Sequence record: PQ400056.1
From: a phage
Reading direction: 5' to 3' (one strand)
Length of the DNA stretch: 64,000 nt
The position numbers and the translations under genes are program-made. The notes beneath the pieces are model-generated. The model saw only the letters and a program-made list of their open reading frames with translations. It had not been told where the DNA came from and did no database searches. Positions 46,896-55,262 of this stretch are shown here, in pieces (position 1 is the first letter of the stretch; each line of letters starts with the position of its first letter).

Positions 46896-46935
46896 TTCGC
46901 ACCCTCGCTATTATTTAGGAAATAACCCTTTCGGG

Positions 46936-48405
46936 CTATTCCCCATTACCATTATACTTTCTTTGCTTAGTTATCCACACTCTAACCATCTCTACAGATT
47001 CGCCGTCAGACGGATCAAGAGTTTTTCCTTTTTTCTTCATGCGGTACTTAAATCCGTTAAATCTTGCATTCTCTTGCTCGTTAAAGTCGAACATCTTTTT
47101 AAATGATTTTCGCCCTTTACGTTCACCACATTCTAGCGGAATCATTCGATCTGTTATTACATTGGCATTAGGCAGAAACGTTTTTAGATAATCCACCAAC
47201 GCCCAATCAGGAACATATAGATTAACATTCTCCTTGCTCTCGTTGTCTCTCAGGTTACAACGCAAACATAATTGAAATGCTGGTTCCAGATAATCAGACA
47301 CATGACGCGCTTTCAAAAACTCGTTTGTCGGGAGATCACAACTATTAGCAAGACCTTTTAAAATATCAATCTCCCATCGTTGAGGGTTAAAGCTGAACAT
47401 CACAGCAACATTTTTATGATGAATGTAAGAGTTAAGACCATAAGACCCGTAAGGTATCCGCTCACCAATACCATTTGTACACGCTTCACGGTCCCGATTC
47501 ACGGTATAAATGAAGTCATCGCCACATTCATTTTTAACCATATCAACAAGACGTTCAAAGGTATTGTTTGTTTCTGACTGGTGACGCGACCATCGTTCAG
47601 AGTCCGTCATAAGGATGATATTAACTCTATCTGTATTTTTATACTCTTTGAAATATAGTCTGGATTCTAGCGCACTCGGAACAAAATCGCAATTTGCATA
47701 GTATCGTAGATACTTCCCACTATATGTATCAAAGAGATTTGCACATGCTATCGTAACCTTTTTAAAGTCTCCCCACGTACCGTGTTTGTTATCGTTCAAG
47801 AAAACAATTTTCGACCCATTCTTCCGGTGTCCTTCGTTATGTTTTACCATAACGTTGATTTTCTTCTCTAATAACGCCTCATAAAGCCCTCTAAGAGAAG
47901 AATCGATCATATCAGTACCATCCTTCGCACTTTCTATCTTTTCTTTGATAGCGGCCTTCTCAGAGTCTTTTAGAACTAAGTTCTGTAGGCATTCCGATTC
48001 GTCGGCGATTGGTTCGCAATGCTTCGTGATAAGTTCAAGATTAGACTTAAACGGATACTCATTAAATTCAACCAGTTGAGGAACTTCATCAATGTAAAGA
48101 GCATAATCACCAAACATTTTTGAACGTTCCATATTAGATAACGCTGTATGTGTAATGAATATCACATCAGCACCATCTTTAACTGATTGCATTATCGACG
48201 CTTGCACTGTCTTAAGGCTTCTTAGTCTTGTGCTATCAATCAAGACAGCACGACCGCCCATTCTTTTAAACTTATTGTAAGATTGTTCACTTAAAACACG
48301 AGATGGCGAAGCAATAACCGCTTTTTCTTTTGTCTCTAGGACGTGGGAAAGTATAGCATCAGTTTTCCCCGCCGCTGGCAATGCGATTAATGTTTCAATC
48401 TTCAT
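46936..48405 (-). CDS. P-loop NTPase of unknown function (489 aa)
   Basis: N-terminal Walker A IALPAAGKTD (residues 7-16), Walker B-like LYIDEVPQ about 95 aa later; no counterpart remembered at this position in T4; ATG 48405 with SD. Confidence 0.6.
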   Translation of the reverse strand: MKIETLIALPAAGKTDAILSHVLETKEKAVIASPSRVLSEQSYNKFKRMGGRAVLIDSTRLRSLKTVQASIMQSVKDGADVIFITHTALSNMERSKMFGDYALYIDEVPQLVEFNEYPFKSNLELITKHCEPIADESECLQNLVLKDSEKAAIKEKIESAKDGTDMIDSSLRGLYEALLEKKINVMVKHNEGHRKNGSKIVFLNDNKHGTWGDFKKVTIACANLFDTYSGKYLRYYANCDFVPSALESRLYFKEYKNTDRVNIILMTDSERWSRHQSETNNTFERLVDMVKNECGDDFIYTVNRDREACTNGIGERIPYGSYGLNSYIHHKNVAVMFSFNPQRWEIDILKGLANSCDLPTNEFLKARHVSDYLEPAFQLCLRCNLRDNESKENVNLYVPDWALVDYLKTFLPNANVITDRMIPLECGERKGRKSFKKMFDFNEQENARFNGFKYRMKKKGKTLDPSDGESVEMVRVWITKQRKYNGNGE

Positions 48406-48710
48406 TAGAAACCCTTACGTCGTGCTTTCTGGCATTTCTTGATCATTTTATCAGAAATTTCGCGCTTAGGTGCAATCTCTTTCACACCGAAAGCACTAAT
48501 GCCAAATTCAGAGAGAATATATTCAACAAACAATTCACGCACACGCGCTTTACCGATATTCACGCCGTTATTTTTCAGATATGTCTGGCCTTCGACTTGC
48601 ATCAGATCTAAATCTGCGTCGGTAATATTGATTTCTTCCATGCGCCCAAATCGAGAATAAACCATGTGTGCGATTGCATTGTGTACTAACATAATATATT
48701 CCTCACTCAA
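48405..48710 (-). CDS. hypothetical protein (101 aa)
   Basis: minus-strand ORF with TAATG overlap to the P-loop gene. Confidence 0.45.
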   Translation of the reverse strand: MSEEYIMLVHNAIAHMVYSRFGRMEEINITDADLDLMQVEGQTYLKNNGVNIGKARVRELFVEYILSEFGISAFGVKEIAPKREISDKMIKKCQKARRKGF

Positions 48711-48713
48711 GAA

Positions 48714-48872
48714 TTACTTAATGATACTTACTTTACCAGATCCATGACAATGAGCGCAACACCCATCACCACGCAATCCTGTTCCGTTACAGTGTTTACA
48801 CTTCTTCAACGGTAAAGCCATTATAGCAAATAAAGCAATAATGAATACCGAAACTAAATTCTCAATAATCAT
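48714..48872 (-). CDS. small membrane-anchored DnaJ-type zinc-finger protein (52 aa)
   Basis: not in the ORF track; hydrophobic N-terminus then CKHCNGTG and CAHCHGSG (two CxxCxGxG repeats); ATG 48872 with GAGGG SD, overlaps the nrdH stop by 11 nt. Confidence 0.4.
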   Translation of the reverse strand: MIIENLVSVFIIALFAIMALPLKKCKHCNGTGLRGDGCCAHCHGSGKVSIIK

Positions 48873-49131
48873 AAATCGCCCTCAGTTCTTTATAGCCTCC
48901 AATGTGCTCGTTGTCAATGAATATCTGGGGGTATACAAACCGGAGGCTCTTTGAGTTTAGCCTCCCCGCCAGTTCTTCAATCATATCACGGTCGGGAATA
49001 ATGTCAACCCCGACCTGCTTGAATACTGGTTTAAGTGTATACGGAATACCCAGATCATCCAGTAGCTTCATTGCACTAATACAACCATAACAATGATAAG
49101 CCTCTTTCGGTATACCGTATATCTCGATCAT
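48862..49131 (-). CDS. nrdH: NrdH-like glutaredoxin
   Basis: 89 aa; redox motif CYGC near N-terminus; position upstream of nrdG/nrdD as in T4. Confidence 0.7.
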   Translation of the reverse strand: MIEIYGIPKEAYHCYGCISAMKLLDDLGIPYTLKPVFKQVGVDIIPDRDMIEELAGRLNSKSLRFVYPQIFIDNEHIGGYKELRAIYDY

Positions 49132-49625
49132 TTCTCAGCCTTTAATCTTTCTAGTTCTTCTTCCAGTTCCTTGATCCGTTGGTCACGTTCAAAGTCACGC
49201 TGTAGCTTAGTGGCAAATACTCGCTTAAACTGATTGTAATCATCGATTTTAAACACTTCTTCTTCGCCATAGCGACGTACAGAAACTTCGTAGTTGTTGA
49301 AAAATTGTTCCAACATTGCATCAGTAGTCAGTTCTGACGACACCACTTTAAAATAACGTTCTTCTGATTGCAAAAACCAGTTGTGCGCGTATTCCCGTAC
49401 ATCATCAACATCTCGACAGGTGTATGTTTTTCCATCAATTTCAATCGCAGAAACATATTCGATATCTGACGCAATTTTTTCAAAAGCGATAACTTTAAAT
49501 GTACGGTCACCGATAAAGTCTGCTATTGCATCATTTGCAACACTGGTTGCAAATGCTTTCCGCGCTCGCTCGTTTTTCCACTGATAGGTCATACCAACAA
49601 CAAACATATTACCATCAACAAACAT
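49128..49625 (-). CDS. paralogous-family protein (WExGKTY family), member 1
   Basis: MTYQWKNERARKAF...FKVIAFEKI...IEIDGKTY...RYFKVV resembles the neighbouring paralogs; N-terminus has an 18-bp tandem duplication; start uncertain (several in-frame ATGs 49592-49649). Confidence 0.45.
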   Translation of the reverse strand: MFVDGNMFVVGMTYQWKNERARKAFATSVANDAIADFIGDRTFKVIAFEKIASDIEYVSAIEIDGKTYTCRDVDDVREYAHNWFLQSEERYFKVVSSELTTDAMLEQFFNNYEVSVRRYGEEEVFKIDDYNQFKRVFATKLQRDFERDQRIKELEEELERLKAEK

Positions 49626-49634
49626 ATTACCAAC
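49599..49634 (-). repeat. 18-bp tandem duplication (2 copies, 17/18 identical)
   Basis: plus-strand AACAAACATATTACCATC then AACAAACATATTACCAAC; duplicates GNMFVD/GNMFVV codons. Confidence 0.8.
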
Positions 49635-50451
49635 CTCGCTCTTTACCAATCAAAAATTCAACTTCACGACGTTTAATGTCTTCTTGAAGGTCTTTAATCT
49701 TCTGGCGATCTTGCATGATTTCATCCATCTTGTCAAGTGCCGCAATGAAATCATCGAAACGTTCAAAGGTTTTACCTTCATTTGCTTCGCCAAATTTAAC
49801 CATTGTCAGGCCGTAACGACTACTAAACAGACGTTTCAACTGTCCAACGATCTTAGAATCAGTGGTTATAACTTCCAATTCTTCTACTTCACGAAAGAAT
49901 TTTCTATCAGAATCAATAAACCAGCTAGTTCCTTTATGGTCTCTATCTTCGGTTGCGCTCATTAGAGTATGGTCTTTACCATCAATTTCAATTACATCAA
50001 TTTGCCCACATGGACTAACATTTTTAACAGTAAAAGGTCTATAATTTATTGCTCGTGCAATAACATAATTAAGGTTAGATACGTTTTCAGCATAATGGCA
50101 GAAGTCGGTCATAGCATTCGCATCTTTCCAAGTATAAGTTTTACCAACTTCCCATTTCTGGGGAACTTCTTCAACTTCACGAAAGAATTTTCTATCGAAT
50201 GGACTAAAGAAATATGTGGCAGTCCAAATGTCTTTTCCTGTAGCAGTTTTCGCCGTATGATAAACACCGTCTAGCTCTATTGCATCAATCCAACCGTTAC
50301 CATCGATCTCGATGATGGTAAATGGCTTGTCACCAATAGCTGCACTAATATCGCTGTTAAGTGGAGAAAGAACACCTTCTCCGTTAGTAATAAACTCAGT
50401 TTTAGCGTTTTCATCTTTCCAGGTGTAGGTTTTACCAATTTCCCATTTCAT
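49627..50451 (-). CDS. paralogous-family protein, member 2 (internal two-fold repeat)
   Basis: 274 aa; MKWEIGKTYTWKDENA ... DRKFFREVEE repeated as QKWEVGKTYTWKDANA ... DRKFFREVEE. Confidence 0.55.
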   Translation of the reverse strand: MKWEIGKTYTWKDENAKTEFITNGEGVLSPLNSDISAAIGDKPFTIIEIDGNGWIDAIELDGVYHTAKTATGKDIWTATYFFSPFDRKFFREVEEVPQKWEVGKTYTWKDANAMTDFCHYAENVSNLNYVIARAINYRPFTVKNVSPCGQIDVIEIDGKDHTLMSATEDRDHKGTSWFIDSDRKFFREVEELEVITTDSKIVGQLKRLFSSRYGLTMVKFGEANEGKTFERFDDFIAALDKMDEIMQDRQKIKDLQEDIKRREVEFLIGKERGW

Positions 50452-50463
50452 AATATATTCCCC

Positions 50464-50964
50464 TTAACCGATTTTATCAAGTTCGTTTAATGCTTTCTCT
50501 GCTTCCTGTATAGCTTGCACTCTTTCCGGCATTTTGTCAAGAAAATCTTTCAACTCTTCAAAACTGGAGATATGACGCAAGGCATTAGCACCGATAGCCG
50601 CATGTGATTTGCATTCAAAGCGAATTTTATAATTATCCATCGCCAATTTGAGAAGGTCTATTAGATCATATTCATGACCAGGCAATAAAACTTCTTTGAA
50701 GCACGCTCGGTCGCCATCGGAAAACCATATATTATCACCAACATCGATAGAACTAATATAATCCCCTTCGTGATTATAGATTGAACGTACATTACCCCAA
50801 CGGTCTACCGTAGCGACAGTAAATGGTTTATCTAGATATGTAAACACACCATCAATATTAGGTTTTTGTTCGTAACGCCAACAATCACGCAAAATGCGCT
50901 TTTCGTCCTCACCAACCAACTTATATGTCTTCCCTTCTTCCCATTTCATAATATCATCTCTCAT
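50464..50964 (-). CDS. paralogous-family protein, member 3
   Basis: 166 aa; MKWEEGKTYKL ... DRACFKEV plus coiled-coil C-terminus. Confidence 0.55.
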   Translation of the reverse strand: MRDDIMKWEEGKTYKLVGEDEKRILRDCWRYEQKPNIDGVFTYLDKPFTVATVDRWGNVRSIYNHEGDYISSIDVGDNIWFSDGDRACFKEVLLPGHEYDLIDLLKLAMDNYKIRFECKSHAAIGANALRHISSFEELKDFLDKMPERVQAIQEAEKALNELDKIG

Positions 50965-51491
50965 TTTTTGATACGTGATTCTAATTGGATCATACGGTCG
51001 CGCGTTTGCTTGTATTCGCGGATAGCACCGATCCGGCTAGGCATACCATCAAGCACGCTCTTAATCCCTTCTAGGGTAGTGATTTTAGCAATGCTATTAT
51101 GTAACCCCATCTTATCGATCAACTGAATGTCGTAGGCTTCCATAAGCAGACCCAGACGTTCTAAAGTTAGGTCTTCTTCTTTTTCTTCCGATTCTGGAAT
51201 CTTAGGTTCAATAATAACTTCGGTAAAGAAACGACGCTCACCCGACCAAAACCACACACCGGAACAGCCAATAGGGGATTCTTTTAACGTCATAGAGTCG
51301 AAATCACTACCGATAATAGTAATTTCTCTAACATCACCATCATCGTCAATGTCTTCTACCCTAAACGGGCGACCAGCCAACAAGTCAACAATACATCTGT
51401 TAATAGACGACGAAAATTTAGTCAGTTCGGCTTTCGACGCTTCGCATTCAATCTTGTAAGTTTTACCAACTTCCCATTCCATAATAATCAC
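50961..51491 (-). CDS. paralogous-family protein, member 4
   Basis: 176 aa; MEWEVGKTYKI ... ERRFFTEV plus coiled-coil C-terminus. Confidence 0.55.
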   Translation of the reverse strand: MIIMEWEVGKTYKIECEASKAELTKFSSSINRCIVDLLAGRPFRVEDIDDDGDVREITIIGSDFDSMTLKESPIGCSGVWFWSGERRFFTEVIIEPKIPESEEKEEDLTLERLGLLMEAYDIQLIDKMGLHNSIAKITTLEGIKSVLDGMPSRIGAIREYKQTRDRMIQLESRIKK

Positions 51492-53398: not shown

Positions 53399-55262
53399 TT
53401 ACATGTGCTTAACGCGGTTTACCATCTCGGAGTGTTTCCCGTGGTTGAATGGACGCAGATCAACAGATCCAAGATATCCACTAACGCGACGGATAACATT
53501 CATCTTTTCCAGATTGTCATTACCGCAATCAGGACAAACAAAACCAGACTCGGTCGCTCTCATTTCCTTAGTAGATCCGCATACATGACATACATCAGAA
53601 GGAGTATTAACACCGAAGTAGTGCAATTTATCCATTGCATAGTCTACTACAGTTTCAAGACCTTTCAGGTTGTTTTTCATGTCTGGGAACTCAACATAAG
53701 AGATCATGCCACCGGACGCCAGCCAGTGATAATCTTTCTCAAAGTCAATTTTCTCAAATGGAGTGACTTTCCGGTCTACGTCAAGGTGGAATGAGTTGGT
53801 GTACCAGTCTTTATCGGTAGCACCCTTAACAATACCAAATTGCTCTCGGTCCAGTCGATTAAATCGATAGCAAAGGCTCTCGGCTGGAGTACCGTAAAGA
53901 CTAAACCCAAGTCCGGTTTCGTCCTTCCATTTTTCAGTATAATGACGCAAGATCTTAAGAATATGTTTACCGTATCGCTGCGCATCTTCCGAATCAAACG
54001 GATGAACACCAAACAGGACGCTCAATACCTCATGTAAACCAATATATCCAAGAGAGATACTAGCGCGACCATCTTTCAACACTTCCAAAATTTCATCGTT
54101 TTGATGAATACGGAAAAACGCACCTTCGGTATACAGCACCGGAGCAACATTGGCTTTAGCCCCTTTTAAAGCGTCTACGCGACTCATGAGCGCATCAAAG
54201 CAAATAGGCATACGATTGGCTAGCTCTTGTTCGAATAGCTCAATTCTGCGCATTACAGACGCTTTACCAGCACGACGCGCGGCAATAAGGGCAATACGCG
54301 GAAGATTCAGGGTCACAACACCCAAGTTATTACGTCCGTCTAATACTTCTTCTCCTTTCTCATTATGCCACACACCCAGGAAGCTACGACAACCCATCGG
54401 GCTAACCGGAACACTAGATCCGGTGATACTACGGTTATTCTTCGCAGAGATATAATCAGGGTAAAGACGCTTACTAGAACATTCCAATGCAAGTTGCTTA
54501 ATGTCGTAGTTCGGATCTTCCGGTTTAAGGTTTAATCCTTCTTCTAAGAACATCACCAGCTTAGGAAACACCGGAGTGATACCATCTTTACCTAAACCTT
54601 TAGTTCGAACGTTCAGGATCGCTTTCTGAATCAGTTTTTTCTTCCCAGCTAGTACCCATACCAAAGGTTAAAGTCACAAAAGGCGTTTGACCGTTGGTGG
54701 AGAACAAAGTGTTGATTTCATATTCCAACGCCTGATATCCGTCTAACGTTTCTTTTTCTGTTTTCTCTTGTGCATAGAGAGTATCAGCTTTGATTCCGTA
54801 GGTTTCGGCATCAGCAAGGTGTTTATAATATGTTTTCTCAACATACGGTGCTAACACCTGATCGATGTTTGCGATTGTGGTCCCGCCATATTGATGACTT
54901 GCCACCTGTGCGATAATTTGAGCGGTTACAGCACAAGCAACGCCGATTGATTTCGGACTTTCGATTTGTGCGCTACCCAATTTAAAACCATTCTCTAACA
55001 TGTCTTTGAGATTAACAAGACAGCAGTTAGTAAACGGCATAGCGGGTGCATAATCCATATCATGATAATGAATGTCACCGTCTACATGCGCTTTATAGAT
55101 GTGCTCAGGTAACACGGTTTTAGCAATCTGTTTAGACACAGCACCAGCAATCAGATCTCGACGTGTCGGGAATGTTCGCGCGTCTTTGTTCGCGTTCTCT
55201 TTGCTTACTTCGTTTTCTTTACCCGTTGCGATCTCTGTAATGTCTTTGATTAGTTTTTCCAT
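53399..55262 (-). pseudogene. nrdD: anaerobic ribonucleotide reductase NrdD, interrupted by a 1-nt frameshift in an A6 run
   Basis: N-terminal ORF 54600-55262 (ENANKDARTFPTRRDL, FTNCCLVNLKDMLENGFKLG, TFGMGTSW) and C-terminal ORF 53399-54664 (LIQKAILNVRTKGLGKDGITPVFPKLV ... C-terminal CPDCG zinc ribbon) match remembered T4 NrdD; frames join if the A run at 54635-54640 (minus strand) is 5 nt; no intron. Confidence 0.85.

What the first reader, a model, noticed from the sequence alone, without database searches (positions are those of the whole stretch)
46936..48405. 489-aa P-loop NTPase inserted between gene 55 and nrdH with no remembered T4 counterpart
The protein has a Walker A at the extreme N-terminus (ALPAAGKTD) and a Walker B-like LYIDEVPQ about 95 residues later, then about 350 residues without recognisable motifs. 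This architecture recalls Zot-like or kinase-like P-loop proteins. T4 has only small ORFs in this interval, so this looks like accessory cargo, possibly host-takeover or anti-defence.
Basis: partly seen in the sequence, partly recalled or inferred. Interest (0 to 1): 0.5.

Follow-up and report, generated by a model that had tools for sequence, protein, structure and literature searches.

The report
Uncharacterised XPD-like helicase of T4-like phages
The 489-residue protein is a complete, probably active DNA helicase whose fold resembles XPD/DinG repair helicases; many T4-like phages outside the T-even subfamily inherit it at a fixed position, and its relatives are fused to primase-like domains in other mobile elements, so it is more likely a replication or recombination helper than anti-defence cargo.

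The parts
46936..48405 (-). CDS of the 489-aa SF2 helicase-like protein; the stop codon TAG is at 46936-46938
   Evidence: ORF list. 100% identical to JSE EpJSE_00045, annotated 'hypothetical protein'. PHROG 2467, E 2.9e-175.
48076..48405 (-). Residues 1-110: first part of RecA-like domain 1, with motifs I (PAAGKT, 48361-48378), Ia (48280-48312), Ib (48139-48159) and II/Walker B (LYIDEVP, 48079-48099)
   Evidence: Pfam DEAD, residues 11-130, 27.3 bits against a cut-off of 26. K14, D106 and E107 are invariant in 74 divergent members. Coordinates. Domain limits are approximate, from the secondary structure.
47764..48075 (-). Residues 111-214: accessory domain inserted into RecA1 between motifs II and III. 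From my own knowledge, XPD/DinG carry their Arch domain at about this place.
47641..47763 (-). Residues 215-255: return to RecA1, with motif III (VTIACAN, 47737-47757)
   Evidence: T218 and N223 are nearly invariant. Coordinates.
47122..47640 (-). Residues 256-428: RecA-like domain 2, with motifs IV (47488-47514), V (47425-47442) and VI (FQLCLRCNLR, 47248-47277) and a conserved VPD (47206-47214)
   Evidence: G323, N325, Q378, R382 and R386 are invariant in 74 divergent members. Model. Coordinates.
46939..47121 (-). Residues 429-489: basic helical C-terminal tail (pI 10.1; 16 K/R in the last 60 residues), at the position where distant relatives carry an HTH_23 DNA-binding domain or a 'GRP...' basic helix
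   Evidence: The T4-like tail itself gives no HTH match and shows no profile similarity to the HTH tails (hhalign probability 0.3%). DNA binding by this tail is therefore inferred.
48405..48710 (-). Upstream gene: homologue of T4 gp55.2. The JSE annotation starts it at the ATG at 48692. Its stop codon overlaps the helicase start codon (TAATG), which suggests translational coupling.
   Evidence: 40.6% identity to T4 ORF 55.2, E 6e-11. JSE annotation. Junction sequence. T4 gp55.2 is a DNA-binding inhibitor of E. coli topoisomerase I (PMC4396842).
46362..46895 (-). Downstream gene 55 (late sigma factor): the syntenic anchor, not part of the helicase
   Evidence: JSE annotation. Same order in 44RR, Pm5461 and CC2.

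Best explanation
The gene encodes a stand-alone, catalytically competent superfamily 2 ATP-dependent DNA helicase or translocase. It has two RecA-like domains, an accessory domain inserted into the first one, and a basic C-terminal tail. Its nearest structural relatives are the XPD/Rad3/DinG 5'-3' DNA helicases, but it has no Fe-S domain. It belongs to a large, experimentally uncharacterised helicase family of phages and integrative elements (PHROG 2467/31024, probably the 'pVOG1685' group of Kazlauskas et al. 2018). In other elements the same motor is joined to an HTH DNA-binding domain or to a primase-like domain, and it occupies the replicase position next to an integrase and an AlpA-like gene. 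In T4-like phages outside Tevenvirinae it is inherited at a fixed position in the early replication/recombination/nucleotide-metabolism block (46/47, 55, 55.2, nrdH/G/D). It is probably co-translated with the gp55.2 homologue. It most likely acts on phage DNA as an accessory helicase in replication initiation or recombination-dependent replication, for example by opening or clearing D-loops, R-loops or forks. It acts in addition to gp41, Dda and (by established knowledge of the T4 core genome) UvsW. Shown here: the ORF, its conservation, the SF2 motifs, the predicted fold, synteny, and the fusions in relatives. Inferred: ATPase and helicase activity, DNA rather than RNA as substrate, 5'-3' polarity, and the replication/recombination role.
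Against: There is no biochemical or genetic data for any member. The phage already encodes gp41, gp61, Dda and UvsX, so no replication function is visibly missing. The three Tevenvirinae genera examined manage without the gene. No iterons or AT-rich element lie in or beside it. The T4-like tail is not a recognisable HTH. The primase assignment of the fused domain rests on PHROG matches and my reading of motifs; Pfam and PDB sequence searches found nothing and the fold search could not isolate that domain. The XPD-family Pfam models DEAD_2 and Helicase_C_2 are not matched. Adjacency to 55.2 fails in 44RR, and 55.2 sits at the same locus in phages without the helicase, so the pairing may be synteny alone.
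Confidence: 0.65

Rival explanations
1. Anti-defence or host-takeover accessory protein: a helicase-like ATPase that counteracts a host nuclease or defence system, or remodels host DNA or protein complexes, rather than serving phage DNA replication.
Against: The syntenic position is stable in five genera, with full-length conservation at 35-74% identity, unlike fast-turnover counter-defence cargo. PADLOC gives no real hit. In the islands the protein sits in the integrase/AlpA/replicase position, not among the cargo. The family is fused to primase-like domains.
Confidence: 0.12
2. RNA helicase or RNA-remodelling ATPase (DEAD-box-like) acting on phage or host transcripts, for example in mRNA stability or R-loop and transcript turnover.
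Against: The DEAD hit is marginal (27.3 against 26). Only 9 residues precede the P-loop, which from my own knowledge leaves no room for a Q motif. Motif II is DEVP and motif III is CAN, not DEAD and SAT. DNA helicases of the XPD/DinG group score 4 Z units higher and align over more residues. Relatives are fused to primase-like and HTH DNA-binding domains.
Confidence: 0.08
3. Dedicated origin-recognising initiator helicase (in the manner of N15 RepA or herpesvirus UL9) that melts a specific phage origin, giving these phages a protein-based initiation route that T4 lacks.
For: Relatives combine the motor with a sequence-reading HTH or with a primase-like domain, and sit in the replicase position of an integrative element. 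Two of 74 members weakly match Herpes_ori_bp, and Kazlauskas et al. link the sister group pVOG9714 to UL9. The tail is basic.
Against: No iterons or AT-rich unwinding element lie in or next to the gene. The T4-like tail is not a detectable HTH. The query itself has no UL9 match.
Confidence: 0.13
4. Zot-like or kinase-like P-loop protein, or an inactive helicase relic with a structural role.
For: Walker A lies at the extreme N-terminus. Two of 74 family members give weak Zot hits (E about 0.007).
Against: The query has no Zot hit. Both RecA domains and all helicase motifs are present, and the catalytic residues are the only invariant positions across the family, which argues against loss of activity.
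Confidence: 0.02

Closest known systems
XPD/Rad3/DinG family of SF2 5'-3' DNA helicases (e.g. S. acidocaldarius XPD 3crv, E. coli DinG 6fwr/6fws, F. magna DinG 9kqh)
   Different: No Fe-S domain: nothing is inserted between motifs Ia and II, and only C130 and C380 are invariant. Motif II is DEVP rather than DEAH. There is no match to Pfam DEAD_2 or Helicase_C_2. It is much shorter (489 aa) and has a basic C-terminal tail. Polarity is untested.
Fe-S-less DinG variants (CRISPR-associated CasDinG 8e2w/7xex; S. aureus DinG 9ii8)
   Different: There is no sequence-level relationship, no CRISPR or exonuclease context, and a different accessory-domain content.
'pVOG1685/pVOG9714' predicted helicase family of viruses and plasmids (Kazlauskas et al. 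2018, PMC5862659)
   Same: [quoted passage not shown] My profile retrieves P0130, a protein with N-terminal primase-like motifs followed by this helicase, at E 2e-27. This is probably the same family.
   Different: I could not check pVOG membership directly, because the paper's alignment figure is an image. The paper gives no fold assignment, synteny or T4-like-specific analysis, and its fusions place the helicase C-terminal to the primase. The long forms found here have the opposite order.
SF2 helicase-primase replicases of phages N15 and PY54 (RepA) and phage PAU gp68 (PMC4889955)
   Same: They are precedent that an SF2 motor joined to a primase can act as the replicative or initiator helicase of a mobile element. 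The long relatives of this protein have an analogous architecture.
   Different: The T4-like protein has no primase domain, and its phage has a gp41/gp61 primosome. No homology to RepA was tested here.
Herpesvirus origin-binding protein UL9 (Pfam PF02399)
   Same: An SF2 helicase followed by a C-terminal DNA-recognition module. Two of 74 family members match weakly. A link to the sister group pVOG9714 is reported.
   Different: The query does not match PF02399, and no origin-like repeats lie nearby.
T4 accessory helicases UvsW (SF2) and Dda (SF1B)
   Same: They are non-replicative helicases of T4-like phages acting on forks, D-loops and R-loops, which is the functional niche proposed here.

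Membership tests
Superfamily 2 helicases/translocases | Two tandem RecA-like domains | tested here: met
Superfamily 2 helicases/translocases | Conserved motifs I, Ia, II, III, IV, V and VI, with catalytic Lys, Asp-Glu and arginine fingers | tested here: met
   Motif positions. K14, D106, E107, G323, N325, Q378, R382 and R386 are invariant in 74 divergent members. Pfam DEAD hits 54 of 74 members and ResIII 32 of 74.
Superfamily 2 helicases/translocases | Nucleic-acid-dependent ATPase or unwinding activity | not testable with these tools
   Requires purified protein.
XPD/Rad3/DinG family | Closest overall fold | tested here: met
XPD/Rad3/DinG family | 4Fe-4S cluster domain with four cysteines inserted between motifs Ia and II | tested here: not met
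   Only about 60 residues separate Ia and II, and none is a cysteine. Only C130 and C380 are invariant.
XPD/Rad3/DinG family | Arch domain inserted in helicase domain 1 | tested here: inconclusive
XPD/Rad3/DinG family | Sequence membership (Pfam DEAD_2 PF06733, Helicase_C_2 PF13307; DEAH motif II) | tested here: not met
   The query has no such hit at E<=10. These models are not among the 25 most frequent families for 74 members. Motif II is DEVP.
XPD/Rad3/DinG family | 5'-3' translocation polarity on ssDNA | not testable with these tools
   Needs helicase assays with 5'- and 3'-tailed substrates.
DEAD-box RNA helicases | Q motif upstream of motif I, D-E-A-D motif II, S-A-T motif III | tested here: not met
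   Only 9 residues precede the P-loop. Motif II is DEVP and motif III is CAN. The Pfam DEAD score is marginal, 27.3 against 26.
pVOG1685/9714-like helicases of viruses and plasmids (Kazlauskas 2018) | Remote SF2 helicase present in T4-like phages and fused to AEP primases in other elements | tested here: inconclusive
   It is present in T4-like phages. Family members are fused to primase-like domains in both orders. pVOG membership itself could not be looked up, and the N-terminal region of P0130 has no Pfam hit.
Herpesvirus UL9-type origin-binding helicases (PF02399) | Match to the Herpes_ori_bp profile | tested here: not met
   The query has no hit. Only 2 of 74 members match weakly, best E 0.0014.
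Zot-like P-loop NTPases (PF05707) | Match to the Zot profile; single P-loop domain | tested here: not met
   The query has no hit. Two of 74 members match weakly. The model has two RecA domains.
Known anti-phage defence or counter-defence proteins (PADLOC) | Significant match to a PADLOC model | tested here: not met
   The only hit is a 13.6-bit, E 0.009 match to an unrelated model.

The most novel reading that the evidence does not exclude
The protein is a dedicated initiator helicase that recognises and melts a phage replication origin or a specific DNA structure. In effect it would be the motor half of a helicase-primase replicase domesticated by the non-T-even branch of T4-like phages. That would give these phages a protein-driven initiation pathway, possibly working together with topoisomerase I inhibition by gp55.2, that T4, the textbook model, lacks.
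Probability: 0.13. Interest if true: 0.7.

Novelty: new variant of a known kind. Interest (0 to 1): 0.4.

Why it matters
T4 is the reference system for phage DNA replication, and its helicase set (gp41, Dda, UvsW) is usually treated as complete for the group. This work shows that a large branch of T4-like phages carries a fourth conserved helicase. The branch includes the RB49, RB43, 44RR, Aeromonas, Proteus, Serratia, Erwinia and Cronobacter groups, several of which are used in phage therapy. The helicase has an XPD/DinG-like fold without an Fe-S cluster and is annotated 'hypothetical' in every record listed from the phage collection. The same motor is joined to primase-like or HTH domains in more than a thousand protein clusters from phages and integrative islands. 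Working out its activity once would therefore annotate a large, currently blank family and would clarify how such elements start replication. It also removes this gene from the list of likely anti-defence candidates.

Tried and rejected
1. Link to unmodified cytosine DNA: rejected. Aeromonas phages 44RR, 31 and 25 carry gene 42 (PMC2993671) and also carry the helicase.
2. Functional replacement of Dda: rejected. The window encodes a Dda-like helicase, and also gp41, gp61 and UvsX homologues.
3. Fe-S cluster: rejected. Only two cysteines are invariant, and none lies between motifs Ia and II.
4. HTH in the T4-like tail: no Pfam hit, hhalign probability 0.3% against the HTH tails of relatives, and only a non-significant IclR wHTH match.
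5. Origin next to the gene: no iterons, tandem repeats or AT-rich dip.
6. Obligate partnership with gp55.2: weakened. The upstream gene in 44RR is unrelated, and 55.2 occurs at the same locus without the helicase in T-evens.
7. Sequence searches that gave nothing: PDB by phmmer and by profile, NCBIfam, PADLOC.
8. Naming the C-terminal domain of long forms: Pfam and PDB sequence searches were empty. Foldseek on the full model was dominated by the helicase part. Only the PHROG primase matches remain.
9. The afdb50 fold library was unavailable.
10. The alignment-based genome scan failed for lack of a conserved stretch. The single-protein scan gave one Mesorhizobium locus, where the gene is split into two ORFs.
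11. Iyer et al. 2005 on the bll5242-like AEP family is not held, so my recollection that this family is fused to an SF2 helicase stays unverified.
12. The promoter and terminator scan is not above chance for the region: 23 sites against 23.0 expected.

Full report
OBSERVATION. The ORF exists exactly as stated: 46936-48405 on the minus strand, 489 aa, starting with ATG. Its GC content (about 0.39) and its strand skew match those of the neighbouring minus-strand genes. The Walker A sequence ALPAAGKTD is at residues 8-16 and LYIDEVPQ at 103-110. The window comes from an RB49/JSE/Phi1-type coliphage (Krischvirus). The protein is 100% identical to JSE EpJSE_00045, which is annotated 'hypothetical protein'. 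The gene order on the minus strand is nrdG, four paralogous ORFs, nrdH, a 52-aa ORF, a 55.2 homologue, this gene, gene 55, a-gt.5, a-gt.4, gene 47. The stop codon of the 55.2 homologue overlaps the start codon of this gene (TAATG).

The C-terminal 350 residues are not free of motifs. An alignment of 42 homologues at 32-74% identity shows a full SF2 helicase motif set:
- I, PAAGKT (10-15)
- Ia, ASxSRxLSxQS (32-42)
- Ib, FITHxAL (83-89)
- II, LYIDEVP (103-109)
- III, TIAxAN (217-223)
- IV, FIYTxNxxR (298-306)
- V, HGLN (322-327)
- VI, FQLCxRxNxR (377-386)

In an alignment of 74 much more divergent members (17% mean column identity), the only invariant columns are K14, D106, E107, G323, N325, Q378, R382 and R386. 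These are the residues an active SF2 ATPase needs, so selection is acting on catalysis.

NOT CARGO. Homologues occur in 244 phage records, including Aeromonas, Escherichia, Cronobacter, Enterobacter, Citrobacter, Klebsiella, Serratia, Proteus and Erwinia phages, and every listed record labels them hypothetical. The gene directly follows, and overlaps or abuts, a small upstream gene in JSE (Krischvirus), 44RR (Biquartavirus), RB16 (Pseudotevenvirus), Pm5461 (Bragavirus) and CC2 (Ceceduovirus). It precedes gene 55 in four of these five genera; RB16 has gene 34 downstream. The upstream gene is a true homologue of T4 gp55.2 in the window (E 6e-11), in Pm5461, in CC2 and in RB16, but not in 44RR. 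In Tevenvirinae (RB14, CC31, Boboto) the interval between 55.2 and 55 holds only small ORFs such as 55.1. The simplest history is inheritance within Straboviridae with loss or replacement in the T-even lineage, rather than a recent insertion.

THE WIDER FAMILY. An exhaustive profile search of 1.84 billion cluster representatives finds 1,329 proteins at E<=0.001 and 765 at E<=1e-10. They fall into two size classes, about 480-550 aa and about 750-890 aa.
- Long forms carry a C-terminal extension with conserved 'lDxDxG', 'NSxS..RYRVxIP' and 'GxDxxK....FYLPC' motifs. Ten of 14 such domains match PHROG 'DNA primase' families, best E 4.8e-10. Pfam and PDB sequence searches are silent.
- Long forms are absent from sequenced phages and rare on plasmids. 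They occur in Bradyrhizobium, Mesorhizobium and Belnapia genomes.
- In two contigs of one island, a long form lies directly after a tyrosine integrase and an HTH_17 (AlpA-like) gene and before defence-like cargo. From my own knowledge, that is the position of the primase-helicase replicase in P4-like integrative elements.
- P0130 has the opposite order: N-terminal DxD, sxH and CHC2-like motifs (my reading; no Pfam hit) followed by this helicase.
- In many divergent short forms the tail after the helicase core is an HTH_23-type DNA-binding domain, above Pfam's cut-off in three of the tails tested. Others have a basic 'GRP...AEKQRxYRxR' helix.
- The T4-like tail is basic (pI 10.1) but is not a detectable HTH.

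LITERATURE. Kazlauskas et al. 2018 (PMC5862659) note All3500-type AEP primases fused to a remote SF2 helicase. [quoted passage not shown] This is very probably the present family, but I could not verify pVOG membership. SF2-primase replicases have experimental precedent in N15 and PY54 RepA (PMC4889955). T4 gp55.2 is a DNA-binding inhibitor of E. coli topoisomerase I that improves phage fitness (PMC4396842). I found no paper on the T4-like helicase itself.

MECHANISM. Most likely (0.65), this is an active ATP-dependent DNA helicase or translocase that serves phage DNA replication or recombination as an accessory motor. The grounds are the intact catalytic motifs, the XPD/DinG-like fold, the basic tail, its place in the early replication/recombination/nucleotide block, and the repeated joining of this motor to primase-like and DNA-binding modules elsewhere. 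One extra hint is that the phiRSL1 family member lies beside a gp47-like recombination endonuclease and near a Dda-like helicase. A more specific idea is that it works with gp55.2 on supercoiling-dependent structures such as R-loops or D-loops. That idea is coherent with DinG biology (my own knowledge) but is speculative, and the 55.2 pairing may be synteny only. The initiator-helicase version (0.13) is weakened by the absence of iterons or an AT-rich element nearby. Anti-defence (0.12), RNA helicase (0.08) and Zot-like or inactive (0.02) readings are less well supported, for the reasons listed under the rival explanations.

REJECTED IDEAS. Presence of the gene does not track unmodified cytosine, because 44RR, 31 and 25 have gene 42. 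It does not replace Dda, which is encoded in the window together with gp41, gp61 and UvsX homologues.

VERDICT. This is a conserved, uncharacterised, Fe-S-less XPD/DinG-like SF2 helicase belonging to a large family associated with the replication of mobile elements. The family was noticed once in the literature and has never been studied. That makes it a new variant of a known kind, of moderate interest (0.4).

Noticed in passing
window 53399-55262 (minus strand): The anaerobic ribonucleotide reductase gene nrdD is split by a frameshift into two overlapping ORFs. ORF 54600-55262 matches T4 NrdD residues 14-209, and ORF 53399-54664 matches residues 207-604. They overlap by 65 nt in different frames. 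JSE annotates only a truncated 332-aa nrdD. No group I intron or other Rfam family is detected in the window. This could be a split gene, a recoding site, a pseudogene or a sequencing error.
   Followed up: partly
window 49128-51491 (minus strand): Four tandem paralogous ORFs (173, 274, 166 and 176 aa) lie between nrdH and nrdG. They share an N-terminal 'W(E/K)xGKTYxW...' module, and the 274-aa protein contains it twice. They match PHROG 5347 (unknown function). The 274-aa ORF also matches PHROGs named 'goF mRNA metabolism modulator' (only two of the four were scanned). An 18-nt tandem repeat lies at 49592-49634.
   Followed up: partly
window 48714-48872 (minus strand): A 52-aa ORF has a hydrophobic N-terminal segment followed by 'CKHCNGTGLRGDGCCAHCHGSGK'. 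By eye this is two CxxCxGxG units of the DnaJ-type zinc-finger pattern. It matches PHROG 3931 (unknown function) and overlaps the end of nrdH by 11 nt.
   Followed up: no
window 48980-49007 and 48721-48750 (minus strand): Two strong sigma-70-like promoter matches lie upstream of the 55.2-helicase pair. One is TTGACA-16-TATGAT with an extended TG (11 of 12), inside nrdH. The other is TTGTCA-18-TATCAT (10 of 12), just before 55.2. The total number of promoter-like sites in the region is not above the shuffled expectation, so these are only candidates.
   Followed up: no
window 46924-46937 (minus strand): A short hairpin AGCCC-GAAA-GGGTT overlaps the helicase stop codon and is followed by ATTTCC. 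The terminator scan did not call it. In Proteus phage Pm5461 a rho-independent terminator is annotated at the equivalent place, between the helicase and gene 55.
   Followed up: no
L008 8168-20834 and L009 6023-18689 (metagenome contigs): An integrative island carries an integrase, an HTH_17 gene and the 814-aa helicase-primase-like protein. These are followed by cargo resembling defence genes: Metallophos, PLDc_2, a phosphatase fused to an ADP-ribosylglycohydrolase, and an Mrr_cat nuclease with DUF8426.
   Followed up: no
L006 7998-10385 (Mesorhizobium sp. Root552): Here the long-form gene is broken into a 462-aa helicase ORF and a 289-aa ORF for the primase-like domain. A 490-aa protein with a type I restriction R-subunit domain 3 (T1R_D3-like) lies next to them. 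This is either a decaying copy or a natural split of the two modules.
   Followed up: no
L007 12669-13604 (Bradyrhizobium sp. 172 chromosome): The 808-aa long form lies next to an ATP-dependent DNA ligase gene, and within 8 kb of a 707-aa protein with a faint ORC/CDC6-like hit. This is consistent with a DNA-replication or repair module.
   Followed up: no
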